Shown piece after piece: positions 9,428 to 63,334 of a DNA stretch of 64,000 nt. A program made the translations under genes and the position numbers. The notes below the pieces were generated by a model, which did no database searches, was not told the origin of the DNA, and saw nothing but the letters and a program-made list of their open reading frames with translations. Position 1 is the stretch's first letter. Every line of letters starts with the position of its first letter. The DNA is from Mobula hypostoma (Eukaryota): contig NC_086097.1 in NCBI RefSeq assembly GCF_963921235.1, positions 102,240,001 through 102,304,000 of the forward strand. Reading direction: 5' to 3'.

Positions 9428-9435
9428 TGACGTCA
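9428..9435. promoter_or_regulatory. Full palindromic CRE (TGACGTCA)
   Basis: Exact TGACGTCA in the CpG-rich block; ETS-like CACTTCCT ~40 bp upstream; TCACGTGA E-box at 10200-10207. Confidence 0.5.
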
Positions 9436-31684: not shown

Positions 31685-32373
31685 CAACACACATCAAAGT
31701 TGCTGGTGAACGCAGCAGGCCAGGCAGCATCTCTAGGAAGAGGTACAGTTGACGTTTCAGGCCGAGACCCTTCATCAGGAGTAACTGAAGGAAGAGCTAG
31801 TAAGAGATTTGAAAGTGGGAGGGGGAGAGGGAGATACAAAATGATAGGAGAAGACAGGAGGGGGAGGGATGGAGCCAAGAGTTGGACAGGTGATTGGCAA
31901 AAGGGGATACGAGAGGATCATGGGACAGGAGGTCTGGGGAGAAAGACAAGGTGGGGGGAGAACAGAGGATGGGCAAGGGGTATAGTCAGAGGGACAGAGG
32001 GAGAAAAAGGAGAGTGAGAGAAAGAATGTGTGTATAAAAATAAATAACGGATGGGGTACGAGGGGGAGGTGGGGCATTAGTGGAAGTTAGAGAAGTCGAT
32101 GTTCATGCCATCAGGTTGGAAACTACCCAGACGGAATATAAGGTGTTGTTCCTCCAACCTGATTGTGGCTTCATCTTTACAGTAGAGGAGGCCGTGGATA
32201 GACATGTCAGAATGGGAATGGGATGTGGAATTAAAATGTGTGGCCACTGGGAGCTCCTGCTTTCTCTGGCAGACAGCGTAGGTGTTCAGCAAAGCGGTCT
32301 CCCAGTCTGCGTTGGGTCTCGCCAATATATAGAAGGCCACATCGGGAGCACCGGACGCAGTATATCACCCCCG
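31685..32373 (-). mobile_element. Young Penelope-like element 3' fragment (GIY-YIG C-terminus and pLTR) with 15-bp TSD
   Basis: ELPVATHFNSTSHSHSDMSIHGLLYCKDEATIRLEEQHLIFRLGSFQPDGMNIDFSNF; flanked by aacatcaattctaaa (31670-31684) and aatatcaattctaaa (32374-32388). Confidence 0.92.
31747..31782 (-). ncRNA. Minimal type I hammerhead motif, core intact but stem I mutated
   Basis: Minus strand ACUC-CUGAUGA-AGGGUCUCGGCCU-GAAA-CGUC-AACU; stem I has 2 of 4 pairs broken. Confidence 0.6.
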
Positions 32374-33883
32374 AATATCAATTCTAAATGGGCTTTTAAA
32401 TAATTCTGCAACTTCATCCTGAACTATATCAGATTATCCTCAGAATAACCTGTGCCAGTTTAATGGTTAGGGATATTTCTCTGCTTAAAGGTAAAAATCT
32501 TGTGAAGCTATGGCCACTTCCAGAGAATATTCAGCCCAGTGGCTGGTGTTATTTCATCCTGAGATTTTGTGTTGGTTATGCACCCGGTAGTGATATAATT
32601 TTTCCAGAGTTTCTGTACATCGAGGGCAGCATCAGTACCCACAGCCTGATGAATGCGTAGAGAAGTATACTTTAAATCATAGGCCTTATGTGCACACCCT
32701 GGTCGCAAAGCTGGATGAGAGGGGTGGACTGGGAGGAAAAAGCACTTCCTGGACATTTGGGTTTTTGGATGGCCAGGAGCAGTATCTAATATTATTCTCA
32801 CCTTGATTCATCACACCGATATTTCTATACCCCTTGTGAGAGGACGTAGTCTGCTGTGGCACAGGTTTGTGCCCCTTTAAGGCAAGAGGATTCTTTGAAA
32901 AATGATGACAGAGGCTTTTCTATGTGGCCAGCAGTATGAAAGCCTGAAGCCTTTTGTACGTTATTACTTCCACCATGTTTTGTTGGCAGCCCTTATCCAC
33001 TGATGCTGCCTCTCCTTGTAAGCTCACATCTACTGCCTCCTTTGCAGCCTCAAAAGGTCGACCGCTCCTCTCCTCAGCATACCTGGCTGGCTGAGATCCT
33101 CCAGCGTTTTGTACATGTTACTCAAGATTTCCAGCATCTGAGTTTGTGTACCTGTAACAGAAATGCTTCAGGCTGTAAATGTTTTTTGTTTTGGGCCATC
33201 CCTATGCTTCCTGTCTTCTATTTGAATACATGTTGTTTTTCCTGAATCTTGGTTTGAATTCATTAGAGCCAGCAGGGACATTTTTTTTCATTCGTTCCCT
33301 CTTGAATCTCTTTTGCATGCTAATTTTAAACTTTTAGGATCACTAAAAACTAACATTTCTTTTGCTTTGGATCTTATGAATTATTAGCCGTACAGCTTCC
33401 TGACTGCTGTCCATTGTTTCTAAAACTTTCACTTTTTGTACTAATGTCATCACTTTGCCTTTTTGGTGTTTCACTAGTTGAATTATGCTATGGTGCTTTA
33501 ATGGTGAGTTAAAATTTAAATGCTAAACGTGGAACTTGAAGTAGCATATAATGTGTAGTAACATAGAGAATGTGTAGTAACATAGAGCATGTGTGGAACA
33601 GGATGGAATACTAATAACACTTTGCTCCCACTCTTGTGTGGAGGCATTTCAAATCTTATTTCACTGATTGTATTGGGGCGGTGGTTCATCTTGAAGGGCA
33701 GGGGAAGGATTTGATGGCATTTGGGTTTGCTAGTCCACAGAATTACAAATAACAGATACTGAATGTACTCTGCTTTTTAAACTTTAAAGTATTTTTGTTG
33801 CGAATGATCATTTCATAGACATTTCCATATTAAAAGGGAATCTCATTCCTTCTAGGTCAGTTTTCGTTTCATTCTCTTCACAA

Positions 33884-33923
33884 ATGGTGTCGATTCAGCA
33901 AGTTGTATTGAGCTCTCGACTGG
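33884..33923 (+). CDS. PTGR2: Prostaglandin reductase 2, first coding exon (exon starts ~33856)
   Basis: MVSIQQVVLSSRL-G matches the PTGR2 N-terminus (MIVQRVVLNSRPG); acceptor ttctag| at 33855, phase-1 donor G|GTGAGT. Confidence 0.9.
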
Positions 33924-34039
33924 GTGAGTGCCATTTCAGCCATACTATTTTACTTTGGCGTTAAGTCCAAATGAAGGGTGAGGTCTTTGCTTCGCAGGTT
34001 AAGCAGAAAATTGAAACCGATCTAGAGAAGATCAGATAC

Positions 34040-34430
34040 TGAAAGAGTTAGGTTTAAGGAGGAGTTGGACAGAGATAGCGCTCAGTACTTGGTGTCGGAG
34101 AGCTGATCAGAGCTCGAAGTTTTCTGATGACTCAGAGTCAGACTGTGGTCGGCATGGCAGGGAGAGTTTTTCTTCCTTCTCCCGTCTGCGTGAGATATGG
34201 GACATTTGAGAAGCTTTGAACTTTTACTGTGCTCGTGGACTTCTTCATCAAGTTATGGTATTGTTGCACAGTTGTAACTATATGTTATAATTATGTGGTT
34301 TTGTCAGTTTTTTCAGTCTTGGTCTGTCCTGTGTTTTGTGATATCACACCGGAGAAAATATTGTATCATTTCTTAATGCATTCATTACTAAATGACAATA
34401 AAAGAGGACTATGTGTCTTCATAATCAAAA
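34040..34430 (+). mobile_element. Non-LTR retroelement 3' UTR fragment or SINE
   Basis: T-rich 3' UTR ending aaatgacaataaaagagg...ataatc, similar in style to Rex1-type tails; family not resolved. Confidence 0.45.
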
Positions 34431-35119
34431 AGTCTAGAGAATGAATTCCCAAGTTTTAAGATTCAGCAAATGAAGGCATAGCTACCAATGACAAGATGTA
34501 AAGAAATTTCTGATTGTAGTTGTAGAGGAGGTGACAGGAAGTGGCAGAGGGATTTGTAGATGTTGGAAAGAATTTTAAAATGGAGGCATTTGTAAAATGG
34601 GTCAATGAACATGAGTTCAATCTACTTGGTGCAGGGAAGTAGTTAAGATTTCAGATTTTGAGAGCAGAGATTCTGAGAAGACTGAAGATGGACGAGGCCT
34701 CTATACACAAGGAGATGGAAAGAACTTCATTTAACAGCATTCAGTTGGATTTTCTTTGCAGTTTTGAGCTTCCGGTTTTAATGTTGATAGTGTATTTTTT
34801 TAATTGTTAGGGCTTTCCAGTTTTCAATTCACAGCTTCAATAGATATTTTGTGATGGTTAAATTAGAATACATAAGCTAAGGCCTGTTGAAGTGGGAGGA
34901 TTTCAGTAAGGGGTAGCATGGCTTAGATTTTTCTTTTCCATGCCTCAGTGGAACAGCAGCAGATTCTCCTGGTAATTCATGCCTTGTCATTCCCTTGTAC
35001 CTGATGGTTACAGTATTTTCCTGTGTCATAAAGTGACTTGCTGCACTTTCAGATTGTTAATGTGTAATGAGGTTGTGAGTGATTGCAGTTTGTTGCCTCG
35101 TTGCAAGCTGTTATCTTTG

Positions 35120-35485
35120 ACAAAGTGGGCAGCACTCTTCTGAGTCAAAGGGTCATGGGTACAATTCCCAGTCTGGAATCTTGAGCACAAAATGAAAGTT
35201 ATTTCTTCCACTGAGCACTGAAGGAATATTGCACTGTCAGAGCGAGTGCCTATTAAGAGTGGCATTTTTGACTGGGAGAGTAAATCAAGCTCCGTAGCTC
35301 CTAGAGGATGTAAGGTCTTCTAGTTATTGTTCTGGTGCCCTGTTCAATTCTTATGCCTTATTAAACCATTAAAATAGAGAATCAACTTGTATTATTACTG
35401 TTTGTAGACTGTGCATGCAAATTAGTATATATATTTCTTAATTGCCACACTTTGGGATCTCCTGAAATTCACTAATAAATCTTTC
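35120..35485 (+). mobile_element. Old tRNA-derived SINE, probably Deu-domain type
   Basis: Head (gtgggcagcactcttctgagtcaaagggtcatgggt..aattcc) and central gcactg.agga.tattgcactgtc.gag...ggatgtaa words; similar relics at ~4935-5275, ~21000-21180, ~59510-59860 and ~60625-60800. Confidence 0.5.
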
Positions 35486-35499
35486 AGTTGTGCCACCAT

Positions 35500-37400
35500 A
35501 TAATGTGTGTTGAAGACAGTGGCTTGCAGTCAGTGAACTGTGCTCTGTGGTCATTGGACTTGAAGCAGGACACCCTGAGGCCCTTTTCATCACTGGTGAT
35601 TTCAGTCAGGCCAATTTCAAGTATATTACCAAAATACTTCCGGGAAGTCTCTTGTCCCAAAAGGGGCCCAAACATGCGTGAATCTGTGGAATTCATTGTC
35701 ACAGATGGCTCTGGAGGCCAAGTCATTGATATATTTAAAGAGGAGGTTGATGGGTTCTTGATTAGTCAGGGCATCAAAGGTTTCATGAAGAAGGCAGGAA
35801 ATCGGGTTCAAGGGGGTTAATAAATCAGCCATGATGGGATGGCAGAGCAGGTTTGAGGGGCTGAGTGGTCTCGTTCTGCTCCTATGTCCTGTGGTATGAA
35901 TCAGACCACCAGGCTGTGCTCCTTCACTCTGCACACAAACAGAAGTTGAGACACGAGAATCTAATACAGAAAATTATAGTGCTGGTTTGAGGAAATAGAT
36001 CAGCTTCTGGTGACTGCTTTGAGTCAGTAGACTGATCCACATTCAAAACCAGTTTAGATGAGTATGTCACAATCACCACAGACTTTGTCAGTAAGTGTGT
36101 TGAGGATTATGTACCAAAGAGGACAATTTGGGTGTTCCCAAATTGGGAACCATGAATGATCGGGGAGACCCACTTCCTACTGGGATTTAAAACTGAATGA
36201 ACAGGGGGACCCACTTCCTACTGGGATTTAAAACTGAATGAACAGGGGGACCCACTTCCTACTGGGATTTAAAACTGAATGAACAGGGGGACCCACTTCC
36301 TACTGGGATTTAAAACTGAACGGGGAGACAAACTTCCTACTGGAATTTGAAACTGATGTTGAAATTGGGTGACCCTGACCTATGCAAGAAATTAGAATAT
36401 GACCACTGAAAAGCCATCAGGGATGCCAAGAGTCAGTATGTCCAAAGTAAATTCCTAGTAGTGGCAGGGTTTATTTGCAATTACAGGCTACAAAACAAAG
36501 TTGGGCAGCATCACTGCTGGTGAGCGCAACACGTTCTGTGCACAGAATGGATTGGAATGTCACCACCAGCCGCGACTGTCTGATACGCAGCTCAGCCCAC
36601 CATCATGGAGAGTGAATCCGCAGAAAGCATTTGGCCCAGACACTGTCCCTGGTCACGTCCTTTCATCCTTTACAGATTAGCTGGTGGAGGGTATTTGCAG
36701 ACTTTAAATCTCTCCCACCTTCAAGTTGAGTTTCGTACCTGCTTTAAGCAGACCACTATCACTCCAGTACGCGTGAAACAAGTAACGTTCTTCATGACTA
36801 CTGCCTGGTTGCTCTGATATCCATCATCGTGAAGTGCTTTGAGATGTTTGTCATGGTACAGATTAACTCTGACATCCCACACAGCTTTACTGTGAAACAG
36901 GGCCAAATCTCTAGCCCTGAAGCATCTGGACAGTAAATGTATCCATGTTAGACCATTGTTTATTGACCACAGCTTGGCCTTCAATACTATCATTCCAAGC
37001 AAACTCATCTCTAAATGCCCAGATCTGGACTCGGCTCCTCCTTTGTCACTGGGTCCGCAGCTTCCTGATCAATAGACTGCAACTAGCAAGGAGCAACACC
37101 TTTGCTCTGATTATTCTCAATATTGGTGCCCCACAGGCTGCTCCCTATACACTCACAACTGACCAGGTTCTTCTCCAATTGCATCTACAAGTTTGTGGAT
37201 GATCCCACTGTAGTGGACATTTCTCATGTAACGTCAAGTTTGGTACAGAAAGGAGAGAACCTAGGACATGGGGTCATGACAACAACTTTTCCCTCAATGT
37301 CACCAAAGCAAAAGAGTTGGCCGCCTGCTTCACAAAGGGTGAAGCAGTGCACATGCATGCTGTTGCAGGGTTTGTGGACTGGCCAAGGGGACAGAAGACA
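35500..37400 (+). mobile_element. Degenerate Rex1/Babar LINE with nested CR1 3' end (~35680-35897) and internal tandem repeat
   Basis: IITGDF.QAN-like endonuclease end, [49 protein letters not shown]. Confidence 0.8.
36163..36357 (+). repeat. 41-bp tandem repeat, 4 copies plus a diverged fifth
   Basis: cacttcctactgggatttaaaactgaatgaacagggggacc with starts at 36171, 36212, 36253 and 36294, then a diverged copy at 36331. Confidence 0.95.
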
Positions 37401-40095
37401 CCATCTACAGGTGAGTTTTGACATTCTTCAACAAAGGAAGACAAACATCAAAACATTCAAGTTGCACATATGCTCCTTTAAAAGACGATGCTGGTGGTGC
37501 TTTACAGGCGGCAAACTAAAGTACTAACTATGCTATTAATTACACTTTTTCTGAGCTGCAATTCTCAGCCTGTAACTCGCCCTTCGGGAGTTATGCTGTT
37601 GAACCGTCAGTACAACCTGGCACTTCTGTGGTATCCTGAGGAATCCAGTGAACTGGACTCTTGAGAATGTAGGTACAGCCTCGGCGGGCATTGCTGGAGC
37701 AGACCTGAGCCTGGATCGAAGTGGCAGGGCCCAGGCCCAGGCCCGAGAGAGGAAAAACAAACCGATGTTTAACCATTGCAAGAGCAGAGATGGGGCCGGA
37801 TCAAAATGGCTGGGCCTGGGCGTGGAAAACAAATCAATGTTTGGCCAATTTAAATGCTGAGCCAGATTTAAAAAGGTCAAAGCATCAAGGCTGAGAGCAA
37901 AGGATGAACCTGTGTTTAGCTGGCTACTCTGTGAGGTTTACTTGCCTCAGAACTGAACTGACTCGGCAGCTGTGGCCTGCAACCATCAGCAGTAGTCTGA
38001 CCAGTGCACTGGCTCATGGTTGTGGCTTGCACCATAGGACTTCTGGACTGGTTTCTTTCACCTCAGTGCTGAACTGGCTCTGTGGCTGTCGACTTGCTTT
38101 TGGGGGCCTTGTTCACGTTCTGTGTTTTGTTTGTTTACCTTTTATTGTTTGCACGATTCTCTTTTTGCATGTTGGGTGTTTGGTCCTTGTGTGGGTTTTT
38201 TTTAATGGTATTTCTTCATTTTGTGGCTGCCTACAAGAAGACAAATTGTAAGGTTGTATATGGTCTACATACTTGTACTCATCTAAGTGTGTGCCTGAGA
38301 CCTCCATCTGCAACACACTTCCAAACTTACTGCGGTGTGGTTCACGCAGATATTGACCCAGCGAGACCACCACACATGCTACATTTATATGGTAGCAGTA
38401 CTTTCTTGCTAGAAGCTAGTATCATGGCACTAGAGTCAGTCAGTGGAAGGGCTGCAGCGTTCTTCAGATAGGCTAGTTGATAACTAATGTGGCAGCAGTG
38501 ACTTTCAATTGGCAGATAGTGTTAACTTTCGCACTACATTCCACCCCTCTAAAAGCTGTGACACTGACACCTGGCCTTTAGGCTAGTATAACCCATGTGG
38601 TTGCCCCATTATGACATGGAACTATAATACCCAATACCCAGTAGACTCCCCAGTGTAACACAGTAGTCCACCAACCTAGTGCCCCATTGTCTTGACATTT
38701 AGCTGATGCATATGCAAATGTATCATGGTCACCATTTTGTAAAGGTGTGCTTTGAACTTCAATTTACTGCTTGCAATTTACAATTTGCATTAAAATCTGA
38801 AGACTAGTTCTTGTCTGACTTAATATCTGTTATATTCACATGACTTCAGAATACTTCCAAACATGCCATCCCTCCTCTTGGCCCCTGGACAGAAATCTGT
38901 GCCAGGAAGGGCAAACCTGTAGGAAGATGTAATTAAGTAGGGTAGTGAAAGTGCCCTTCACTTCAGATCACTTGCTCAATTTCTAACCTATCACGTCCCA
39001 ATATCTATCTACACTATCTGTCATCCCTAATTGGCTATCTACAAGACTAAGCAGTAATGGCATTAAAACATTCCAGAAATTTGATCATGTCTTGGGCACT
39101 TCTGTCTTCTCTATTTCAACCAGTCTTTAAAACGCAACTTTATCATCTGTGTGCTTGTTGCCTCCTTCCCTACTGACCTATTACACTTCGATCACATCCT
39201 TAACTTTACGCCTTCAATCTCTGATAGCTAAAACTGTCAGTAGTTACTTTGTGGGCAGGGGTATCAGCAAGGTAACTTTGTTTCATGTTTGCATTCCATG
39301 CAATAACAGGAGGTTATCAGAATAATCAGACAACCAGCCTCTGCCCCTTTGATCTAAATGCGTGTTTGGGGTGGTCCCTGTTTGAGAGACTGCAAGGACC
39401 TCACCCCAATGGCACTGTACCCAGACTGTCCTTTTGATCAGGGGTCCCCAACCTTTTTTGCACTGCAGACTGGTTTAATATTGACAATATTCTTGCGGAC
39501 TGCGGGGGGGGGGGGGGTGTTGATCAATACCGGAATATAGGTGATAAGTCAACTATAAATCATTTATAAGTGTCTAATACACTTGTTACATGTTCAAGGA
39601 GATTTTTTTTGTGAGAATGCTGTAATGGTCTTTTGGAGGTCACCTGATGTGATTTTCCCATCGATGTGAGGTCACGTGATGATGTGCCCCGTGACTATAT
39701 AAGGGTCGACTCAGGTGACGCAGTGGGTTTTGAGTTTGTAGATTTCCAGGTAGAACGTGTTGTGCCTCCGTTTCTGTTGCATGTTTGTTTTTGTGACGCA
39801 GTTTCATTTTTAAAACGGAAGGTGCGTTCTCTTACAAGATATGGTATTTGGACTGGGAATTTGTGGCTGGAAGTGCCAATTTACTCAATTCCGACAGTTT
39901 TGAAGGGAGAGTGAAGAATTCATCGAAGTGAAGGATCGAGAGCAGTCGGCATCGTTTGGCAGTTTAATAAAGAATCGACCTTATTGAGTCTTCGTTGGAG
40001 AGAACCTGCATCGAGATAACTCTTGTAAAAGGGCAACATACATCAAAGTTGCTGGTGAACGCAGCAGGCCAGGCAGCAACTATAGGAAGAGGCGC

Positions 40096-40131
40096 AGTCG
40101 ACGTTTCAGGCCGAGACCCTTCGTCAGGACT
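40096..40131 (-). ncRNA. Minimal type I hammerhead ribozyme (Penelope pLTR)
   Basis: Minus strand AGUC-CUGACGA-AGGGUCUCGGCCU-GAAA-CGUC^GACU: conserved core, 4-bp stem I, short stem II, palindromic ACGU stem III, GUC cleavage triplet. Confidence 0.85.
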
Positions 40132-41133
40132 AACTGAAGGAAGAGTGAGTAAGGGATTTGAAAGCTGGAGGGGGAGGGGGAGATGCAAAATGATAGGAGA
40201 AGACAGGAGGGGGAGGGATAGAGCCGAGAGCTGGACAGGTGATAGGCAAAAGGGGATACGAGAGGATCATGGGACAGGAGGCCTAGGGAGAAAGACGGGG
40301 GGGGGGTGACCCAGAGGATGGGCAAGAGGTATATTCAGAGGGACAGAGGGAGAAAAAGGAGAGTGAGAGAAAGAATGTGTGCATAAAAATGAGTAACAGC
40401 TGGGGTACGAGGGGGAGGTGGGGCCTAGCGGAAGTTAGAGAAGTCAATGTTCATGCCATCAGGTTGGAGGCTACCCAGACGGAATATAAGGTGTTGTTCC
40501 TCCAACCTGAGTGTGGCCTCATCTTTACAGTAGAGGAGGCCGTGGATAGACATGTCAGAATGGGAATGGGATGTGGAATTAAAATGTGTGGCCACTGGGA
40601 GATCCTGCTTTCTCTGGCGGACAGAGCGCAGACAGAGCTCTGTCCGCCAGAGAAAGCAGGATCTCCCAGTGGCCACACATTTTAATTCCACATCCCATTC
40701 CCATTCTGACATGTCTATCCACGGCCTCCTCTACTGTAAAGATGAGGCCACACTCAGGTTGGAGGAACAACACCTTATATTCTGTCTGGGTAGCCTCCAA
40801 CCTGATGGCATGAACATTGACTTCTCTAACTTCCGCTAGGCCCCACCTCCCCCTCGTACCCCAGCTGTTACTCATTTTTATGCACACATTCTTTCTCTCA
40901 CTCTCCTTTTTCTCCCTCTGTCCCTCTGAATATGCCTCTTGCCCATCCTCTGGGTCACCCCCCCCCCCGTCTTTCTCCCTAGGCCTCCTGTCCCATGATC
41001 CTCTCGTATCCCCTTTTGCCTATCACCTGTCCAGCTCTCGGCTCTATCCCTCCCCCTCCTGTCTTCTCCTATCATTTTGCATCTCCCCCTCCCCCTCCAG
41101 CTTTCAAATCCCTTACTCACTCTTTCTTCAGTT

Positions 41134-41169
41134 AGTCCTGACGAAGGGTCTCGGCCTGAAACGTCGACT
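41134..41169 (+). ncRNA. Minimal type I hammerhead ribozyme (Penelope pLTR), sense to PTGR2
   Basis: AGUC-CUGACGA-AGGGUCUCGGCCU-GAAA-CGUC^GACU; predicted cleavage after C41165. Confidence 0.85.
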
Positions 41170-44100
41170 GCGCCTCTTCCTATAGATGCTGCTTGGCCTG
41201 CTGCGTTCACCAGCAACTTTGATGTATGTTGCTTGAATTTCCAGCATCTGCAGAATTCCTGTTGTTCTTGTAAAAGGGCAATGAGTTCATGCAAAAAGGT
41301 GCTCTCTCTAAAAGGAATTTAAGGTCAGTCAATTTAAAGTGTTTAATTTCGGCATCGGGAATCCTGTGGACAGAACCAGCAGTAAAAGTGCTTCGGTGAA
41401 GAAATTTTTCTCCAGAGAAGTCTCTCCCAATTGAATGCGTAAAACTGTTGGACTTTCGAAGTTACCGCTTTAAGAACTCTATCTGACTGTATCGCTTTAA
41501 GAACTGTTTTCAGCATTTAACGCTTTCAGAACCAGAGCCGAGTGGCGAGTCTCCGGTTAAAGTTTTCCTTTGTTTTTTTTTTCCTTATCGTTTATACGTG
41601 TTTAATAAATGTTTGGTTGTTTTTATATATCCTGTCTCGATTAATATTCATTGTTGCCGGTTACGTAACACACTCAATTTTGTTTCTAAAAGGGTTTATC
41701 TAACGAATTTAATATTAAATACAGCGCATATTTTCCTCGCATGGATATAGTGATAAGTCAATTATAAGTCACTTATAGGTCAATAGCATCATTAACATTT
41801 TAAGTAACGTTTTGATATTAAACACAGCGCATATTTTCCTTGTCTGAACATACAAAATCATTGCAACACACCAATATCGCTGAATCAATGGGAGCCCTGG
41901 GCTTGTTTCCCTGCAACAAGACAGTCCCATCGAGTGGTGATGGGAGACAGCGATACTCAGAGGGGGTTCCTTATGTCCAGTGTATTCCACAATTTAGTTT
42001 TCGTTGCATTCATTGCAGAAAACCCTGCTTCGCAGAGATATGATGTTGGAAATGGAAGCAACATTTTCAGTGCTTTTGTGGCTTTCTCAGGATATTCAGC
42101 CTTGACTTTGATCCAGAATGCCAGCAGAGATGTTATGTCAAACATACTTTTCAGCCCACCGTCATTTGCAAGCTCGAGGAGTTGATCTTCTTCCCTCGCT
42201 GACATGGATGATTCACCTGGGACATTCACAAATGGGTCATGGACCCATTCCTTTGCACGTCTTGGGTCATTTGCGGTTGGGAAGTAATGCTCGAATTCTG
42301 TCGAGAGTGAAGATAGGTGATCGAGCACCAGCTGTGAGAAAGACGGTGCAGCCTCAGTCTCTCCCAACATCCCAGCTAATGTTGGGAACATGTCAAATAT
42401 GCCCCTGTCCACTCGCCGTCCCCACAGTTCCAGTTTAGCTTTGAAAGCAGACACTATCTGCCAATTTGAAGACAATTATCATTCTCCTCTGAAGTGACAA
42501 ATTGAGTTCATTGAGCAGGTTGAAGATGTCACACAGATAAGTGAGTTCTGCTATCCACTCCTCATCACTGAAGTTTGCTGCCAGTGGTGACTTTTTTCCT
42601 GTAAGAGATCTCTGTAGCTGCTCTCTTAACTCAAAAACTCTGGCCAGGGCTCTCCCCCTTGATAGCCACCTGACTTCAGTGTGTAAGAGAAGGCGTTAAT
42701 GCTCTGCATCCATTTCCTCACAAAGCTGCTCAAACAGACGTGAGTTAAGGGCTTTTGTTTTGATGTGATTTATAACTTCAACAACGTTGAAGCTTCTCCC
42801 AACAGTTCATGGCACATGTCCTTGGCAGCAGGCAGAATCAATTCTTCACCAACAGTGAAAGGCTTCTTAGCCTTAGCAACACGGCCAGTCACTAAGTACG
42901 ATGCTCTCAGAGCAGCAGCATTTGTGGAGGTGGTGTCTCCCAGCACTTGCTTCTGTTCCGTTTGCTCAAAAAAAACTCAAACGGGTTTGTCTTTAAGTGC
43001 AGGGTGCTTGGACCCAAGGTGCTGAAGCAGTTTTGAGGGCTTCATTGCCTCATTAGACAGCTTGTCTCCACATATCACACACAGGGGGCTTGGAGCGTGC
43101 GAGTCACCGGTCACAATAAAGCCATATTTTATGTACAACTTGTCATATTTTCTGTTGAAGGAAGCTGTCTTTTTTTTTGCAGTCTCTGCCTCAGCTGTCT
43201 CTGCGTTACCTTCATCGTTAGGCCTTTTATGTCCCCTACCATCTCTTCCAAAGAAACTCTCAAGCGAAGTTTGTTGTTTTTTTTTTGACTCATCAAGTAT
43301 TTGTAGGTTAATGACTGACTGATGACCTCGAAAGGCTAATGACTTCCTGTGCATTCAAGTTCAACAGTGGGCGTGACAGAATGAGGAAAGGTGCAGCTGA
43401 CTCGTATCATTTCATGTATCGTTTCATATCGCCAAATCATATCGTTTCCTCGCTTTTCACATGCTCTGCAGCCCAGTACCGGTCCACGGCCTGGTGGTTG
43501 GGGACCACAGCTTTTAATCGCTGGCCTCAGACTGCTGAAGTGAGGGGTTAAAGTTATTAGTGAACTCTCCAGCCAGTTGATCAGTGTAGGTTACACTTGC
43601 ATTCTAGTAGACAGGAATGACCTAAATCCTGACTACTTGCATTTTGAGACACCTGCTGTGACTGTCTTGACCTTACAAAGTTCTTTCCGAAAGAACTAAA
43701 GCTCAATCAGTTGACAATACTCATATTTTATAAACTGTCTGAAACACTATTGTTAAGAAAAGCCATGTTTCAGTTCACTCCCCAAATGTTCCAATTTCCC
43801 TTCAGAAACAAACAAATCACCAATTTCCCTAATTGTCAATGTCTTTCAGAAAAGAGGGCATCCCATATCTGTAACAGAAGCGTAGATTTCCGTCATCTTG
43901 ACCTGCATTTCACATGGCTAGTACAGAATCTGGGTCTCAAATCAATTCCATATAAAGAAACAAACTAAAAACACAGACAAAACAAAATCCATCCTTCCTT
44001 CAGGGCCTTTGCAAGTTACTGGAAGCCCTAAACAAATAAGTTTATTTCCACAGTGAAGGAGAAAACATATGACAGCCTACTGTCACCGTTACTGAGCTGA

Positions 44101-44229
44101 ACTCATATGTGGCCACACATCAGCAACATTTGGAACATATAAACCAGTCACACCTCAAACCATTTCAGAAAATGACTTGCTCTTGAGGGTTAACTCATTA
44201 CCAAACTATTAGGCATCTGTTTTGTTGTA

Positions 44230-45120
44230 AACAAGCACCCGTCCACAGTCACAGTCTGTCCATGATCCCCTGGTGGATCTGCTCCATCATTTTACCTGTG
44301 ACCAAAGCCCTCAAACAAAGGATCTTAGTCCCTTCCTCTTCCAAGCCTTCCAGGACTTTAAATTCAATAAGGGAGGGATACCTAACTTTAACCTCTGCCA
44401 CTTAATCCCATATTTATCATCCCCTCGGGAAGCGGGTGGCATTCTCAGTGCACTGTTTATCGGGTGATGGGGCGACAGCTTCCCCAGGGCACCCACCTCT
44501 CCGTTAGATAAGATAAATCTAGCCCCCTCCACATGCCACATCCTCAATAGCCATGTGGTCAGCCAGTTACTCCCTCGGCTTTTGTCCATATCTATCTCAA
44601 TTCCACCAGTTCTGTAACAGAAACACTCATTGTTGCCATCTTAAAGAGGCCCATTATGCTGTCTACCCCATCTTGTCCTGCGGAGGTGGGACGGGCCATG
44701 GGCCAAAACCCCCTCCCCTCCCCAACCGGGTATAAGACTGCATGGTCACTGGTCTAACCTCGAGTGGCTCTGCCGCATAAGGGGCAAGGGCAATCACTTT
44801 GCGGGAATTACAGACTCTCCTCTAACCTCTCTTCCCTGTCCTCCATCCACACGTCAGGATCATCTTCCTGCAGCATCAGGGCTCGGGCCTTAACGGGGTC
44901 CAGTTGTCAAGCAGGCTATTTGGTACCCTTGTCGTCCAGTTCTTTAGTCTGGGTCTGCTGACCGGGCAGCCGCCCCTGTGGTAATACTGCACTGATTCAA
45001 CACCTCCACCTCATTCTTTCTTGTTCCTTCTGCAAAATCATCTCATACTGTTGCTTTATGATAGTCACCGGAAGCTGTAAATCTCCCTCATGGCTTCTCT
45101 TGCTAAATGGGAGCCCTATC
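44230..45120 (-). mobile_element. Degenerate gag fragment resembling class III (ERV-L-like) endogenous retrovirus
   Basis: Hand translation across frameshifts: QLDPVKARALMLQEDDPDVWMED ... SVTELVELR/DRYGQKPRE*L/TTWLLRMWHVEGARFILSNGEVGALGKLS..., resembling ERV-L/Fv1-type gag motifs (VKVRALIGKEWDP..W; EL....Y.QK.GE...W.LR.WD.G...I.L...E...G.LS). Confidence 0.6.
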
Positions 45121-46619
45121 TTCAGGTTCAACTTCAAATCTAATTATCATTGAACCACTCATGGGTATAGCCAAACAAAACAGTGTTCCTGCAGGGCCAA
45201 AGTGCAAACCACATTACCAACAGCACACAAAATACTGAACTCAGTATGGATTCCAGTGTGCCCACAGAGGCTTCTACTGTCCCCCACACCACCTCCAGCA
45301 TCTCCTCCCCTGGGCCACTGCAATAGGTGACCCTGCTGTAAGGGCCTAGGCCTCACTATAACTGAGGCCACACAGCTTTCCCCCATCAGTCTTTCCAGTG
45401 AACCAGTGATCTGCATTTCTGCTGTTTTATATTACATGTGTCCAGCAGGGCTTGCGATCACAATAAAAACATCCAAGGCAATCACCCACATTGCACACCA
45501 TTCAACAATACAACAGCAGTACAGCTCCATCACTATTTAGCAACTCACTGATGGGATAGTCCTGTAATGTTCTTGGTATCTAGCAGTGCCTAGCAGTGGC
45601 TTGTGATAATTTTTTAAAAAAACATACAGGATGAACAAATACACCTTTGACTGGACCCGGAATGGCTGCTGTGTCTAAACTCGCAGCCATTTTGTTCAGC
45701 ACAGACACAATATGGTGCCCCATTTTCACTCCGTGGGAGTCCAGCTTGTTTGACCAGTCCACTGTCATGCTGTGGTTTGCCAGCAGGTTGGCAAGACTTG
45801 TGAATCCTGCACTGTTACCAGTCTACCCTGGGACTTGGCATTCCTCACAGAGGGCGTTCTTGTTCTTATTCCTGCTTTTCAACATTTTAAGCAGTTTTGT
45901 CTTCTGTTCCATTACAAAATCGTTGCCAACTATGCCAATCATTTGCAAATTAGGTAAATAGGACAGAAGATGCCAATTATGAGTAAGTTTTAACTATTTA
46001 TCAACAAACAAAGACAAACACTAAAACATAATTACACAGATATTCATCCAAGTGTGCACACACTTCCAAACTTTACACAGCACTGTTCGCTCAACCCAAA
46101 GTCTGAGAGTGGCCGAGCGAGAGCACCATGTGTGCTACATTCACTGGGGAATAAAATTGCTTTGTGAGCTAACATAGATTTGACAGGCCAGAATGACCTA
46201 TGTTGTCAGGATGTATAAAATGGTTGTAACATTCAAGAGGGCATTCAGCAGTCAACAAGTGAGAAATTATTAAATAAATACTGTTCTGGCACAAGATAGG
46301 TTTTGAAAGGATGGTTGTTTCAGAACAAATTTATTCACCTTTGCCTTAAATGGGAAGAGATTTTACAGAAGACTACATTTTTGAAGTTCTTTTTTAAAAC
46401 ACCGGATTGCAGTGGAGTTTGAATGATTGGATGTCTTGAATGCCAGGATAGCCAGACTTTTTTTTCTTGTCTGCAGGGGAAGCTGGGGTTATGAGGAATA
46501 GGCAGGAAAATGGAACTGGGGAAAAGATGTAGTCTTCGTAATCTCAATAGTGGAGCATGCTCAAGGGAACCTGAAATGTCCTTGTTACTTGTTCTCTCAC
46601 TTGAGGTTCCTTGCCACTG

Positions 46620-47190
46620 TTATAACCAGGAGAGGTAGTGGGGACAAGCTCCTGTTACATTTTTCACAATGGCATGTGTTTCAAATAGACTCTAACGACC
46701 AAGTCCAGCTCCTGGCTTTCACATGTGGCTTAGCTACTAAGCTGGGCAGAACTGTTTCTACTGAGAGAAGGGGCAAAGGCCCTTACAACCAGTCGCTTCA
46801 GGCAGATGGGGCTCATCAGTTGAGATTGGCAGCTCAGCCAAGAGAAGGAAAACTCTGATCTCAAATCTGTTGCCTTATGGCTATACCCACTCATGGGGAA
46901 GGCTTCAGGAATAAACTGTGAGGAGCTGGGGTCCCTAAGGCAGTCCTACGTTGAGTTCAGTGCTGACTGGCAATTTCTGCAAAGCCACTGGTGCCAAGCT
47001 GTTGGTCTCTGCTGTTCCTTTGGATTCTTCAGCTGCGCAGAGAGGGAGAGCCTGCTGCATGGACAACAGCTTGCTCTCCTTTTCATGCTGCCCTGGCTTG
47101 CTTAGACAGCTGGGACGCAGCATCCGTGGTTGACCCTGATCAGTGGGGGTAACAGCAGTGATAGACTGGTGACACATGCCACTAAGTCAT
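46620..47190 (+). mobile_element. Interspersed repeat resembling an RTE-type LINE 5' region or derived SINE
   Basis: Words such as ggcagctc...gagaaggaaaactctgatctcaaa and catggggaaggcttc; an RTE-like 5' UTR word (ggttgagcatggagctagcagccccatccc.taaa) also occurs at 63950-64000. Confidence 0.4.
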
Positions 47191-47709
47191 AATTACACTG
47201 TACTCTATTAATTCACTGCTCTGATCCATCTGTTTAGGCTACTTTCACTCTATAATGAGACCCATTGCAAGCTTGAAGCTATTTGGCCCAATTTGTTTCA
47301 GATATTTCCTTGTCCTGTCTATCACTTCCATCTTCTCACTAAATTGAAATTAATTTTTTTCTCTTAGTTCTGACAAAGACTTCTCAGTCTGAATGTTTTA
47401 TGCAGAAACAAAGCTGCTGCAGCCAACACATTGTTACTAGTGCAACTATTGTATGCAAGCAGACAGCTGTCTTGTGTGTATTGGTATACCTGGTGTGCAT
47501 ACAGGTTGTGGCCACCCAGCTGGATAAAATCCTCTGTCACCATGATCATAACCCCAGCAGAGGGAGCTATCAGGTTACAAAGAAAGCCTTCTCCAGTCCT
47601 TTGGTCTGACTTTACTGCATCCTGTTAAATTAAATTAAGAACTGTCCTCATTTGAACCTCAGAGCACACTAATGTACACTTAAAATGTTTTTATTTATTG
47701 ATTGAGATA

Positions 47710-48150
47710 CAGTGCAGAAATGGCTGAGATACTGGCTGCATCACCATCTGCATAGGATCAAAGTGAGCTGCTCCATCGTGGATACTATCCTCCATAGTAT
47801 CCATGACATCTTCAAGGAGCAATGCTTTGAAAAGGTGGTGTCCATAATTGGGGATCCCCATTACCCAGGTCATGCCTTGACACCGCTGGGAAAGAGGTAC
47901 AGAAGCTTGAAGGCACATAATCAATGATTCAGGAAATGCTTTTTCCCCTCTGCTGTCCGATCTCTGAATGGACATTGAACCCATGAACATTAACTCACTA
48001 TCTTTTTATTACAATTTTTGGACTACTTGTTTTATATATTTTTTACTGTAATCCATGTTTTTTCTATTATGTATTGCACTGCACTGCTGCGGCAAAGTTA
48101 ACAATTGTCATGACTTGCGCCAGTGATATTAAATCCGATTCTGATTCTGA
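47710..48150 (+). mobile_element. Rex1/Babar LINE 3' end
   Basis: SIVDTILHSIHDIFKEQCFEKVVSIIGDPHYPGHAL.PLGKRYRSLK; tail (gattct)n. Confidence 0.85.
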
Positions 48151-48344
48151 GCAGGCCCACCCAGCAACCCCCAATTTTACCTGGGCCAAATAACTGGATA
48201 ATTTATAATTAGCCTACCAGTCTTTGGACTGAGGGAGGAAACCCACGCAGTTACAGGGAGAACATGCAAACTCCTTATGGGCAGCAAGGGGAATTGAACC
48301 CAGGTCACTGGTACTGCAGGGCATAGTGCTAACCACTGTGCTAA
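48151..48344 (-). mobile_element. V-SINE
   Basis: Minus strand tagcacagtggttagcact...gggttcaattcc...ggagtttgcatgttctccctgt..ctgcgtgggtttcctcc...cagtccaaagac. Confidence 0.8.
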
Positions 48345-51300
48345 TGTGCGGACAAAAATCGACACGAGTGTAATTATTTCTAACGTACACTTTATTCCCA
48401 ATGCAAACAAATGGTAATGTCATATGTATATTGTGTGTGTGTGTAAACAAACCTTGCCCCCAAAACATAATAACGTAAAACATAACACTTAACATACATG
48501 GTGAACTTAACCCTTAACAGTCAGGGTGAATTCTGCCTAATGAAATTAAGGAGTCCCTACACCACGCCCTCCCCCCCCGGCCGGCGAATTCACCCTTCCA
48601 GATGAGGTCAAACGAGCAGGGATCCACAAAACTCAGCCAAGCCTACTCCTGCCTTCACGGCAGGTGCTGGGTTCCTCCCCAGTCAATGTACAGTCCATGT
48701 CAGACTGTCTGGAGGTGAGGTGAGGGGCTGGCTCCTCCGTGGGGGCTGTGCCACTTCCACTGGAGAGGCCAGGTCCAAATGGGCAGGCTTGAGACAATCC
48801 ACTGAAACGCTGTCTGGGATACCTCCAAAGTGTAAAAAAAAACAAAACACGTATTCCCCGCAGAATGGGCCGTCATAAGGCGGCCACGGGGGACCCCGAT
48901 GTCCATCATGATGCACAAATGCGTACTTCGCCTCCTGCAGGCCCGGTGACAGGTGTGACAGTGACAGGCCTTGCTGCGTCGTGGGCACTGGAGTGAAAGT
49001 TTTGACGCCGACGGCCGCTGCAAAGCGGACCGTGGTTGTTGGGGGAAACTCCTGGCACCCGCAGGGGTTGCCTGAAAATGAGCTTGGCAGAAGAGGAAAG
49101 GTCTGCCGTGTGAGCTGCCCTTAGGCCCAACGTGACCCATGGCAATCTGTCCACCCAAAAACCATCACTGAGGCATGCACGGAGAGCGGCTTTCATCGAA
49201 TGGTGGAACCGCTGGCACAGACTGTTGGCCTGAGGGTGACAACCCATGACTTGGTGCAGCTTGACCCCCAGATCACGGGCAACCACTGAGGTGTAAACTG
49301 CGTCCCTTGGTCTAAAGAGACATCCGGTGGGATGTCGAACCAAGCAATCCACGAGCCAACGAGTGCTCACGATACCTCTGAGGCTGAAATGGACGACACG
49401 GCACTGCCTCTGGTCAGCGTGTGTCCTTACGATGGTAAGGAGGTGTGTAAACCCGTGGGATGGGGGCAGTGGGGCATTCACGTGGTTGAAATGCCGCTCG
49501 GACTGCGAAAGGAGTTAAAGGAGCCTTGGCGTGTTGATGCACCTTTGCGCATTGACACCCCAAACAAGCACTAGCCCAGTCCCTGACATCCTCCTCAAGC
49601 CCATGCCACACAGACTTTTCTGTCGCCGGTTTCTGTGATGGTCTCTGGCCTGGGTGAGAAAGCCCGTGGCCTGGGTCGCCCTGTTGACACATCACACAGT
49701 AACGAAATGCCACTGTCACTGAAAGCAAATCCCACCAATTTCAACCATCTGTCTGCTGAACAGCGCCTGCACGCTTGGGTCCAAAACCGGGTCTGCCGCC
49801 ATCGGAGTGTAGTCCACACCCAAATGGACAGCACCAGTGAAGGACCGGGAAAGGCAGTCGGCCATGAGGTTACGCTTTTCTGCGACTTTCTGGATGTCCA
49901 TGGTGAACTCTGAAATAGAAGAAAGAATGCTGTCGAGCAGACCAAGATTCAGAGTCCTTAGCTGTGGCAAATGTTAGGAGTTTATCATCCACAAAAGCCA
50001 TAAATGGACAGCCTCCAGGAGAAAATAAAAATGCTGTACTTGCACTCGCAGGGGCGAAGTTGATGGTTAAAAAAGGTGAGAGGCTGCCATTGCCCAGTCA
50101 CACTCACATCTACAGTGACGAAGTGCTTTGAGAGGTTGGTCATGACTAGACAGAACTCCTGCCTCAGCAGGACCTGGACCCATTTCAATTTGTCTATCAC
50201 CACAATAGGTCAGCGGCAGATGCAACCTCAATGGCTCTTCACATGGCCTTAGACCACCTGGACAACACAAACACCTATGTCAGGATGCTGTTCATCGACT
50301 ATAGCTCAGCATTTAACACCATCATTCCCACAATCCTGATTGATAAATTACGGATCCTCTGCAATTGGATCCTCGGCTTCCTAACCGGAAGACCACAATC
50401 TGTGTGGATTGGTGATAACGTCTCCTTCTTGCTGACCAACTGCTCATGTATGGTGCTGACCATGCAATCTGATGTGTCCATGGTGATAGTGATCGCACTG
50501 TGGGAGGGGTGCGCCAACAGCCTGGCATTGGATAATACCTGCTTAATGCCCAAGATCACCTTGAGTCTTTCATCTGTCCAGTCCACGACGTGCTTTTCTG
50601 CTTTGCCCTCAAGGGTTTCAAAGAGCGTGAGCTGAGCCGCTTTGGGGACAATATGGTGATAAAAATCCACCATGCTCAAAAACTCCTGCAGTGACTGGTC
50701 GAGCGAAGTGCTTAATGGCCTCAGCTTTAGCCGGCAGGGGAACTACCCCTGCTGCATTGACACCGTTTCCAAGGATGTTGACCACGGACAGTCCAAGCTG
50801 GCACTTCGCTGGGTTGACAATAAGACTGTGCTGACTAAGGTGTTTGAAAAAGATTCACAAGTGTAAGAGATGTTTGTCCCTAGGAGAGCTGACTACCGAA
50901 CAAACAGGAATGGCAAATCCCTGCGAACACTGTCCAGGAGGTGCTGATAAGTTTGGGATGCAATCTTCAGCCCGAATGGCATTCGAAGGAACTCAGACAA
51001 ACCAAGCACTGATAACAGCGGCTTTAGGAATGTCACTTGGGTGAACAGGGACCTGGTGATAACCGCGAATGGGGTCCACCTTCAAGAAAATAATTTTCCC
51101 TAGCAGGCGGGCAGAGAAGTCCTGGATGTGCGGGATTGGGTATCAGTCAGGGGTCGTGGCGATAATTGCCACAATGATGTCACCTGCCCCCCGGTTTTTG
51201 CACGATGTGGAGAGGGGAAGCCCATGGACTACTGGACTGCCTGGTGATGCCTCAGCACTCCATGGCATCAAACTTTGCCTTAGTGACAGTAAGCTTCTCC

Positions 51301-52445
51301 AGGTCAAGGCGCCTGGCAGGGGCGTGAATGAGAGGGCTGGTGGTGAGGATGTGGTGCTCCACCCCATATTCAGTGGTGGGGGAGGAGAGGGTGGGCTTGG
51401 TCAGGTCCGGAAACTCAGTGAGGAGGCGGACGAAGTCGTCGGAGGTGGAAAGGGTGCTGGACAACTTTGAAGTGCTGGTGGCACTAAGTGTGCCAGAGAG
51501 GGAGTAGAAAGTCTCTTTGTTGACAAGGCGCCCATTCTGGACATCAACGAGTAAGGCTGTTGGTGCGGAGGAAGTTGACCCTCAAAAGGGGCATAAACAC
51601 CACTGCCAACACAAAATTCCAGCAAAACTTCTGCCTGCTGAAGTACAACAACATCTCATGCTTACCAAAAGTCCGGATGGCGCTCCCGTTTGCAGCCTCG
51701 AGAGACGGTCCATATTTCCCAGTTCATTTGTCCAATTTAGATGCGGGCAGGATGGTCACTTGAGCTCTCATATCACAGAGGAAATGGCGCCCGGAAACAG
51801 AGTCTGTAATGAACAACAAACTGCCTGACCTACTGATGCCCTTAGTAGCTAACGGGCGCTGGCCGTTCTGTTTCCCGACTCCTTGAACCCACAGGGTGGG
51901 CAGCACTCCTTAGCTCTCGGCCCAAACCTCGCATGTTAGAAACACGGGCTAGGAGACCGTTGTTGAGCCGCAGCGATTGTCTCGCGTTCAGGTGGTGGTG
52001 CGGCAGCAAAGTCATCCAGCCGTAAGGTTGCACAGGCCCTCTTGGTAATGGAAAACACCTTGTCAGCCTCTTTCGCTAGAGCAGTGAGGTCTTTGAGGGG
52101 ACAGCCAGCCAGAGCCCATCACACCTCGCCTGGTTGTTGTTGCAGGAAAAGCTCTCTGAAGATGAAACACGGCTGAGGTCCACCAAGGGGGGATTGCAGT
52201 CGCCTAAGCGGGCAGTGAGAGAAGCCGACAGGCGTGCTCAGACTTGGAAAGTTCGGAAGTCTCTAGGAGGAGTTGCCTAAGAGCCTCATACTGGCTGTCT
52301 TCTGCAAGGTGCTGTAGGATGCTCATCACCCTGGTCGCCGTAGAGCTGTCTAACGCTGCGACGATGTAGTAATATTCCATGTCAACTTCCGAGATTCCCC
52401 CCACTGCGAACTGGGCCTCTGCCTGAGCGGACCAAACAGCGGCAT
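48345..52445 (-). mobile_element. Ty3/Gypsy LTR retrotransposon relic (gag-PR-RT-RH-IN plus 3' LTR 48561-48345), 5' end lost
   Basis: gag WSAQAEAQF...YYYIVAALD; protease FITDSVSGRHFLCD; VEHHILTT.P.IHAPARRL; RT; TMDTSD RNase H; integrase LPPSHGFTHLLTIV, HPQANSLCQRFHHSMKAALRA..WVDRLPWV.LGLR; G-run PPT then TG...CA LTR with AATAAA. Confidence 0.92.
50088..50437 (+). mobile_element. Rex1/Babar RT fragment inserted in the Gypsy RNase H region
   Basis: PVTLTSTVTKCFERLV...[32 protein letters not shown]...[16 protein letters not shown]. Confidence 0.88.
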
Positions 52446-52581
52446 ATAAATAAATTTTAAAAAATAAACTGGTTAGGTTTTCATGATACTTCTGACAGTT
52501 CATGGCCACTTTTGCTAAGATGAGTTTTATTTTCAGATACCAAAATGAACAAGCTTGCTCTGAAGATGATTGCAGTGATAG

Positions 52582-52779
<198 letters not shown>

Positions 52780-53653: not shown

Positions 53654-53899
53654 GAGTTCTGAACTGCCTTGCTGGACAGTAGACAATAGGTGCAGGAGTA
53701 GCCCATTCGGGACCCAAGTTCAAGCCCAGACAGGTCCGACACTGTCCCAAGTTACTTGGAGGAAAAGAAAATTCAGCGATTGGATTAATCTGCACTGTCA
53801 AGGGCAGAACTAAGATAGTCAGAATGCCATAGTTAATGAAAGATCATGTCTAACAAAGTTGATTATTTTTTTTTTGAAGGGACAACAACCCATGACAGC

Positions 53900-60198: not shown

Positions 60199-60579
<381 letters not shown>

Positions 60580-63091: not shown

Positions 63092-63334
<243 letters not shown>

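What the first reader, a model, noticed from the sequence alone, without database searches (positions are those of the whole stretch)
41134..41169. Intact minimal hammerhead ribozyme in sense orientation within a host pre-mRNA
Seen: AGUC-CUGACGA-[AGGGUCUCGGCCU]-GAAA-CGUC^GACU retains all core nucleotides, a 4-bp stem I and a palindromic ACGU stem III; its exact mirror lies at 40096-40131 on the minus strand. Established: minimal type I hammerheads in Penelope pLTRs typically cleave as dimers via the palindromic stem III. Inference: this lone sense copy may need a partner in trans (another transcript of the family), and hairpin formation with the left arm would switch it off, giving conditional intron cleavage.
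Basis: partly seen in the sequence, partly recalled or inferred. Interest (0 to 1): 0.7.

Follow-up and report, generated by a model that had tools for sequence, protein, structure and literature searches.

The report
Masked Penelope hammerhead in ray intron
A small hammerhead self-cutting RNA motif of a known kind sits in a young, truncated, mirror-image insertion of a Penelope-like jumping gene inside an intron of a ray's PTGR2 gene, where its own mirror copy is predicted to pair with it as it is transcribed, so it is likely a silent passenger rather than a gene switch.

Summary
A minimal type I hammerhead lies at 41133-41170 (+) with an identical mirror on the minus strand. It fits the published min-HHR descriptor (2 hits in 64 kb, 2 hits in 500 shuffles). 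It is the terminal-repeat ribozyme of a young, 5'-truncated Penelope-like (Neptune-type) insertion: two 99% complementary 600-nt arms head to head, a 33-nt one-sided tail and a 16-bp target duplication. It is sense within the 18.7-kb intron after the start-codon exon of a ray PTGR2 gene. All of this is described for Penelope-like elements. The proposed conditional switch is not supported. The antisense arm is transcribed first, and folding predicts over 99% pairing of every ribozyme base with it as soon as the motif emerges. No intact same-sense partner lies in the window. This copy is no better conserved than its flanks. Published min-HHRs do not cut alone, cut slowly as dimers, and in one element need the element's protein. 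Across related families the motif is a conserved island, so it likely serves the retroelement, not the host. No cleavage or expression data could be obtained.

The parts
41133..41170 (+). Minimal type I hammerhead motif (stem I 5 bp with an outer U-G, core, extra A41145, 4-bp stem II with G10.1-U11.1, ACGU palindrome); predicted cut between 41165 and 41166
40095..40132 (-). Identical mirror copy of the hammerhead in the left arm; antisense in the host pre-mRNA, so it is the masking strand
40637..41265 (+). Right arm: 5'-truncated 3' end of a Penelope-like element (endonuclease C-terminus, 3' UTR/pLTR with hammerhead, tail)
40639..40839 (+). Last 66 codons and stop of the GIY-YIG endonuclease ORF; 95% identical to a 422-aa ray protein with a GIY-YIG match and a CX4CxxC linker
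41233..41265 (+). 33-nt 'tail' present on the right arm only
   Evidence: tail described in PMC3846280, PMC8557442, PMC11167929
40033..40627 (-). Left arm: inverted copy of the same piece without the tail; 5 substitutions and 1 one-base indel against the right arm in about 595 nt
40628..40636 (.). 9-nt spacer at the palindrome centre; it repeats the adjacent arm end imperfectly (short templated duplication at the head-to-head junction)
40021..40036 (+). Left copy of the 16-bp target-site duplication (its last 4 bases overlap the left arm end)
41266..41281 (+). Right copy of the 16-bp target-site duplication
39584..41670 (.). Solo-LTR-like element into which the Penelope piece inserted (842 nt net, TG...CA inverted ends, 4-bp flanking duplication); the LTR label is inferred from the ends only
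39439..43510 (-). hAT-like DNA transposon relic holding both (terminal inverted repeats, 8-bp flanks matching at 7 of 8, weak zf-BED match E 0.048); the hAT label is recalled from these features
33856..33923 (+). PTGR2 start-codon exon (ATG 33884); 13 of 13 residues match the named ray protein
33924..52642 (+). PTGR2 intron of 18,719 nt that holds the insertion; the cut site is 11,477 nt before the 3' splice site
52643..52761 (+). Next PTGR2 coding exon (further exons 60208-60399 and 63092-63262)

Best explanation
The motif is the standard minimal hammerhead of a Penelope-like retrotransposon's terminal repeat, carried into a PTGR2 intron by a young, truncated, head-to-head insertion, and it is likely inert there because the upstream mirror arm is predicted to pair with it as it is transcribed. 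Shown: the motif, the palindrome, tail and target duplication, the endonuclease remnant and the host exons. Inferred: (1) the element's RT/endonuclease copied about 630 nt of the element's 3' end and made the inverted second arm during the same insertion, probably by fold-back priming at the centre; (2) in the PTGR2 pre-mRNA the antisense arm is made first, so the sense arm zips into a hairpin of about 595 bp and the hammerhead fold never forms; (3) the intron is spliced out uncut, and whatever effect the insertion has on the host would come from long double-stranded RNA, not from cleavage. The ribozyme's job, if any, lies in the life cycle of full-length elements.
For: Fit to the published descriptor, 2 of 2 sites in the window being this pair. 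Arms 99% complementary with a 9-nt spacer; 16-bp target duplication and one-sided 33-nt tail, as described for these elements. Endonuclease C-terminus 55-95% identical to 12 proteins, the best from rays; 4 of 6 scanned have a GIY-YIG match below the Pfam cut-off and 5 of 6 the CX2-5CxxC linker. Both arms share states that differ from the family majority (e.g. 41039, 41045, 41080, 41172, 41226), so they come from one template. Nascent-RNA ensembles ending at 41170, 41200 or 41265: minimum pairing of ribozyme bases to the left arm 0.99, stem II pair probability about 2e-23; whole hairpin -1332.6 kcal/mol. No same-sense partner: of 9 pLTR relics found in the window only 3 keep the full core (this one, its mirror, and an antisense copy at 31676-31815 that fails the stem test). 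No sign of selection on this copy: 3 of 38 differences in the motif against 42 of 553 elsewhere versus the 92% copy. Family-level conservation: many contigs match only up to 41134 or 41170 and run on unlike (X5 35 and 43, X21 365 and 389, X24 350 and 360).
Against: Masking is an equilibrium prediction; RNA-binding proteins, helicases or editing could change what forms on a nascent transcript. The family is very abundant (5,430 to 70,256 contigs laid per run), so partner RNAs may not be scarce. A related ribozyme is switched on by its element's protein, which a folding model cannot capture. The gene runs past the window end, so more distant same-sense copies are not excluded. No cleavage assay or same-species read data were available.
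Confidence: 0.82

Rival explanations
1. Conditional intron cleavage: when the hairpin does not form, the sense ribozyme pairs in trans with another family transcript, or is folded by the element's protein, cuts the PTGR2 intron and lowers PTGR2 mRNA.
For: Core intact and sense in the intron. Family RNA or DNA is abundant in related rays' contigs. The cut site is 11.5 kb before the next exon, close to the 9.9 kb of the CPEB3 intronic ribozyme that does tune splicing. Protein-assisted cleavage exists for an Anolis element.
Against: The masking arm is upstream and 99% complementary. The model gives the active dimer no advantage over two monomers (+11.6 kcal/mol), although it also disfavours the three what-if variants (+6.6 to +10.1), so this number is not discriminating. 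Published dimers cut weakly at 10 mM Mg2+. The insertion is young and nested in two other mobile elements, with no sign of selection.
Confidence: 0.04
2. The long hairpin, not the ribozyme, is the active thing: the spliced-out or nascent 595-bp double strand is edited by ADAR or diced into small RNAs that silence the family, or it perturbs PTGR2 splicing. This can hold alongside the best explanation.
For: Predicted near-perfect hairpin inside a transcribed gene. Long intronic inverted repeats are classic editing and Dicer substrates (own knowledge, no call). Small-RNA silencing of Penelope families is mentioned for rotifers (figure legend seen).
Against: No read data for this locus. One literature search for editing of Penelope inverted repeats listed 1 paper, whose held text had no relevant passage.
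Confidence: 0.3
3. The copy is dead on its own account: G10.1-U11.1, a weak stem II and a competing pairing of the core with the cleavage triplet would stop it even as an unmasked tandem dimer.
For: The monomer's lowest-energy fold pairs 41140-41143 with 41162-41165; the open hammerhead fold has probability 6.5e-4. G10.1-C11.1 is called highly conserved.
Against: G-U at this pair occurs in 8 of 56 published representatives, and the same core-plus-triplet combination occurs in several. Five of the 7 other relics aligned also have T at this position, and no position from 41127 to 41170 is among the 40 best-supported family differences shown (89 not shown).
Confidence: 0.3
4. The palindrome is an assembly or amplification artefact, so only one arm exists.
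For: Near-perfect inverted duplications can be technical chimeras (own knowledge). No listed contig spans the centre or the right junction (the runs hold at most a third of the stretch's words).
Against: A 16-bp target duplication frames both arms; the arms differ at 6 places, 4 of them where only the right arm departs from the family majority; the one-sided tail is a known biological feature.
Confidence: 0.03

Closest known systems
Minimal hammerheads (min-HHR) of metazoan Penelope-like elements (Cervera and De la Pena 2014, PMC4209133)
   Same: Fits their descriptor exactly; extra base between 9 and 10.1; palindromic 15.2-16.2 without loop; sits in the pLTR after the RT-EN ORF; mostly solitary in truncated copies; opposite-strand pairs 100-700 bp apart were already noted there.
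   Different: G-U instead of G-C at 10.1-11.1 (a minority state in their alignment); short 4-bp stem II; no cartilaginous fish among their 56 representatives; the pair here is about 1 kb apart.
Head-to-head inverted insertions with a one-sided 30-40-bp tail in EN+ Penelope-like elements (Arkhipova et al. 2013, PMC3846280; Craig et al. 2021, PMC8557442)
   Same: 5'-truncated copy with an adjacent inverted 5'-truncated copy, palindromic junction, optional tail, target-site duplication.
   Different: Both arms are truncated within about 2 nt of each other inside the endonuclease coding region, giving a 595-bp perfect hairpin; the 16-bp duplication is longer than the 8-10 bp quoted for rotifer copies.
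PAc (Poseidon element of Anolis) hammerhead (Frangieh et al. 2024, PMC11167929)
   Same: pLTR hammerhead upstream of two alternative 3' ends that define the tail.
   Different: PAc is Poseidon clade and was tested: it cleaves only with the element's protein and cleavage is not needed for insertion in vitro. The element here is Neptune-type by its linker and untested.
Intronic self-cleaving ribozymes with a host role: CPEB3 HDV-like ribozyme (PMC10274809); intronic hammerheads of amniotes (mentioned in PMC6765202)
   Same: Sense orientation in a long intron, about 10 kb before the next exon.
   Different: CPEB3 cuts as a monomer with a 2-3 min half-life and is conserved across mammals; this motif cannot form stem III alone, is young, repeat-borne and masked by its own antisense arm.
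Non-LTR retrozymes (preprint 10.64898/2026.07.22.740005)
   Same: Type I hammerheads related to Penelope pLTRs, reported also in one chondrichthyan genome.
   Different: Retrozymes are non-coding head-to-tail tandem repeats with two or more same-sense ribozymes; this is an inverted pair carrying coding sequence.

Membership tests
min-HHR of Penelope-like elements | CUGANGA(H) and GAAANNUH boxes with stems I and II as in the published descriptor | tested here: met
min-HHR of Penelope-like elements | Unpaired base between positions 9 and 10.1 | tested here: met
   A41145; best parse has 4-bp stem II after it; an alternative parse without the extra base also passes the descriptor
min-HHR of Penelope-like elements | Palindromic 15.1-16.1 segment without a stem III loop | tested here: met
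   41161-41164
min-HHR of Penelope-like elements | G10.1-C11.1 pair (highly conserved, not universal) | tested here: inconclusive
   G-U here; 8 of 56 published representatives have G-U by my count
min-HHR of Penelope-like elements | Location in the pLTR of a Penelope-like element | tested here: met
   about 300 nt after the endonuclease stop, 100 nt before the element's end
min-HHR of Penelope-like elements | Self-cleavage as a dimer or with protein help | not testable with these tools
   needs a bench assay
Rfam hammerhead families | Match to a covariance model | tested here: not met
   no hammerhead match at E<=10; not filed under any Rfam family
EN+ Penelope-like element | C-terminal GIY-YIG endonuclease after an RT | tested here: met
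   fragment is the C-terminus of ray proteins with GIY-YIG matches, E 5e-4 to 2e-3, below the Pfam cut-off; the RT part is absent from this truncated copy
EN+ Penelope-like element | Inverted 5'-truncated copy, one-sided tail, target-site duplication | tested here: met
   definitions
Neptune (or Nematis) clade | [quoted passage not shown] | tested here: met
   in 5 of 6 closest proteins examined; the linker itself is not in the truncated copy
Neptune (or Nematis) clade | Placement in the RT phylogeny | not tested
Non-LTR retrozyme | Head-to-tail tandem units each with a same-sense hammerhead, non-coding | tested here: not met
   inverted pair with coding remnant
Host-exapted intronic ribozyme (CPEB3-like role) | Locus conserved under selection and able to fold on the nascent transcript | tested here: not met
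   no excess conservation; predicted full masking

The most novel reading that the evidence does not exclude
The retrotransposon's own protein binds the emerging sense arm, keeps it from zipping and folds the hammerhead, so that PTGR2 pre-mRNA (and every other gene with a sense copy of this very abundant family) is cut only in cells where the element is active: a transposon-activity-gated knock-down of host genes, with head-to-head palindromes as self-silenced, tolerated insertions.
Probability: 0.04. Interest if true: 0.65.

Novelty: new member of a known kind. Interest (0 to 1): 0.14.

Why it matters
As it stands it is one more copy of a ribozyme class described in 2014, in an insertion shape described in 2013, and the same genome holds many such copies. 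Its modest value: a ray example of a Neptune-type min-HHR (none among the 56 published representatives), and a clean young palindrome whose two arms, tail and junction record how these elements insert. The function of min-HHRs in these elements is still open, and a genome this rich in copies would allow a cheap statistical test (orientation bias of unmasked versus palindrome-masked copies in introns). If cleavage of host introns were shown, it would be a new way for a retrotransposon to tune host genes.

Tried and rejected
Rfam scans at E<=10 of 38000-44000 and of 41105-41200 gave no hammerhead family; the microRNA-like hits at 40586-40681 are just the palindrome centre. No whole genome is held for this window, so genome-wide copy counts and orientation bias could not be computed. 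One pattern scan of metagenome contigs found 0 loci. The run search listed 24 runs, no RNA holder listed, none holding more than 0.32 of the sampled words; 4 of the 24 were laid on 40590-41420. All are contigs, which cannot show RNA ends, strand or level, so the empty table of molecule ends says nothing about cleavage, and the lack of contigs across the centre or the right junction says nothing about the locus. The frequency of T versus C at 41157 in the family could not be read, because 89 difference rows were not shown. The dimer energy calculation is not discriminating. My first, looser descriptor gave the same 2 sites. A motif search for the PTGR2 start exon failed; a donor-site scan and tblastn found it. 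Lunse et al. 2017 (PMC5785218) is not held; only its title was seen in a reference list. Searches for ribozymes of Penelope elements in cartilaginous fish listed 0 papers and 14 papers, 12 shown, none on the subject. PMC2837043, PMC3365414, PMC8782182 and PMC9148063 (passages only) added nothing usable. Considered and dropped: a cis dimer with the mirror copy (wrong strand) or with other relics in the window (cores or stems broken, or antisense); unlocking by A-to-I editing (it would also hit the catalytic adenosines; inference).

Full report
Observation. The motif parses as a minimal type I hammerhead: stem I of 4 bp plus an outer U41133-G41170 wobble, CUGACGA at 41138-41144, an unpaired A41145, a 4-bp stem II (G-U, G-C, G-C, U-G) with a CUCG loop, GAAA at 41158-41161, then C-G-U-C with the predicted cut after C41165. 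The published descriptor for minimal hammerheads (Fig. S7 of PMC4209133), re-implemented in a script, finds these 2 sites and no other in 64 kb on both strands; 500 shuffles gave 2 hits in all. Rfam has no model that reaches it at E<=10. The pair 10.1-11.1 is G-U rather than the G-C that the paper calls highly conserved; by my count from the text of its Fig. S3, 8 of 56 representatives have G-U, so this is a tolerated minority state in sequence, of unknown effect on rate.

The element. Both copies belong to one insertion. 40033-40627 and 40637-41232 are 99% complementary with 9 nt between them; they differ by 5 substitutions and one base in a C run. The right arm runs on for 33 nt (41233-41265) and the whole is framed by a 16-bp duplication at 40021-40036 and 41266-41281. 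The right arm begins with the last 66 codons of an ORF. This peptide matches 12 proteins at 55-95% identity, the best from Mobula and Hypanus. Of 6 of them scanned, 4 have a GIY-YIG match below the Pfam cut-off and 5 carry a CX2-5CxxC linker, the mark of the Neptune and Nematis clades as against Penelope/Poseidon (PMC8557442 passages). An inverted 5'-truncated copy next to the direct one, a palindromic junction, and a 30-40-bp tail on one side only are the described architecture of these elements (PMC3846280 passages; PMC8557442); in an Anolis element the tail corresponds to two start sites of reverse transcription (PMC11167929, parts 1-2 of 4 read). Both arms stop within about 2 nt of each other in element coordinates and the spacer repeats the arm end imperfectly. 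Both also share bases that differ from the family majority. I infer one template and fold-back priming, the self-priming idea of PMC3846280; two primings on two RNAs are not excluded. The insertion sits in an 842-nt solo-LTR-like element (39584-41670), which sits in a hAT-like relic (39439-43510) (labels inferred from the ends), so it is the youngest of three nested layers.

The host gene. A splice-site scan, Pfam and tblastn with a named ray protein place PTGR2 coding exons on + at 33884-33923 (13 of 13 residues identical), 52643-52761, 60208-60399 and 63092-63262. The motif is therefore sense in an 18,719-nt intron, 11,477 nt before its 3' splice site. This rests on homology; no read showed the transcript.

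How it most likely behaves. In the pre-mRNA the antisense arm comes first. Folding 40000-41300 gives one hairpin of -1332.6 kcal/mol. For nascent RNAs ending at 41170, 41200 or 41265, every base of the motif is paired to the left arm with probability 0.99 or more, and an inner stem II pair has probability about 2e-23. The 38 bases bind their mirror at -80 kcal/mol, against -7 for the open hammerhead fold and -11.5 for the modelled dimer. The zipper can follow the polymerase from the centre outwards (inference), so the off state is predicted to be constitutive, not conditional. No partner exists in cis within the window: of 9 pLTR relics found, 3 keep both core boxes, namely this copy, its mirror and an antisense copy at 31676-31815 that does not pass the stem test. 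Even free, such motifs are poor: a Schistosoma min-HHR showed no cleavage alone and low cleavage as dimer or trimer (PMC4209133, parts 1-2 of 4 and the whole supplement text read). The Anolis one cleaves only with its protein, is not needed for insertion in vitro and leaves no read ends at its site. To affect splicing a cut would have to come within about 3 min at 3.5-4.1 kb/min; slow ribozymes are reported to have no effect (PMC10274809 passages, citing earlier work).

Selection acts on the family, not on this copy. Against the 92% copy nearby the motif differs at 3 of 38 places and the rest at 42 of 553. Identity of the two mirror motifs is expected from the arms' overall divergence (about 0.74 by my arithmetic from 5 of 595). 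By contrast, among contigs of 4 of 24 listed runs from related organisms (5,430-70,256 laid per run at 85% likeness), loose ends pile up exactly at the motif's borders in three runs: before 41134 and behind 41170 (X5 35 and 43, X21 365 and 389, X24 350 and 360); the six rows shown for X1 do not include them, and 2,070 rows were not shown. Some contigs in X1, X5 and X21 jump from the ORF end to 41131-41134. The simplest reading is that diverged subfamilies keep the ORF end and the hammerhead while the sequence between them turns over; older relics in the window show the same pyrimidine-rich upstream sequence. Copies truncated just before the motif could add to the 41134 ends.

Against my reading. 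The masking is a thermodynamic prediction that ignores proteins; the family is abundant enough to supply partners; protein-assisted folding is real in a relative; the dimer energies do not discriminate, since three what-if variants are also unfavourable; and I have no cleavage or expression data. The gene continues past the window. The monomer also prefers a fold that pairs the core with the cleavage triplet, which would support a dead copy regardless of masking.

Comparison and novelty. It works like, and by every testable feature is, a min-HHR of an endonuclease-positive Penelope-like element; opposite-strand pairs of such motifs were already reported in 2014. No cartilaginous fish is among the 56 published representatives; two searches for such a report found none on the subject, but a 2026 preprint (part 1 of 5 and passages read) finds hammerhead-bearing retrozymes in one chondrichthyan, and its supplements could not be seen and may hold this family. 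PMC6765202 (passages) summarises the dimer model; the 2017 dimer paper was not available. Earlier notes of this scan describe like copies elsewhere in the same genome and like palindromes in a shark; these are leads, not support. Verdict: real, correctly spotted, a new member of a known kind, probably inert at this site. Interest 0.14.

Noticed in passing
window 31676-32276 (-) with 40640-41234 (+): A 90-93% complementary antisense copy of the same family lies upstream of the PTGR2 start-codon exon, so it and the right arm flank that exon as an inverted pair about 9 kb apart; the nearer, 99% left arm should out-compete it. One stingray isoform lacks this exon's sequence.
   Followed up: partly
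window 39439-43510: Three nested mobile elements: hAT-like relic, solo-LTR-like element, Penelope palindrome, each with its own flanking duplication (8, 4 and 16 bp). The LTR-like part had contig cover in runs X1 and X5 but next to none in X21 and X24.
   Followed up: partly
window 40614-40650: The palindrome centre carries a short imperfect duplication of the arm end, like a templated insertion at a repair or template-switch junction.
   Followed up: partly
window 21396-21557, 25654-25775, 27619-27704, 30986-31095, 33051-33141, 53896-53995: Six older pLTR relics of the family with broken hammerhead cores; longer coding relics at 27965-28951 and 54223-54453.
   Followed up: partly
window 26001-26500 and 7501-10500: Two CpG-rich stretches: the first likely the PTGR2 promoter and first exon, the second likely the promoter of a neighbouring gene; not identified.
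   Followed up: no
P0030, P0032, P0034, P0037: Several annotated ray proteins named after ordinary genes contain this element's endonuclease C-terminus, suggesting exonised or mis-annotated family pieces.
   Followed up: no
window 11480-12594, 36153-36357, 55028-56968: Minisatellite-like tandem arrays giving long repetitive open frames.
   Followed up: no
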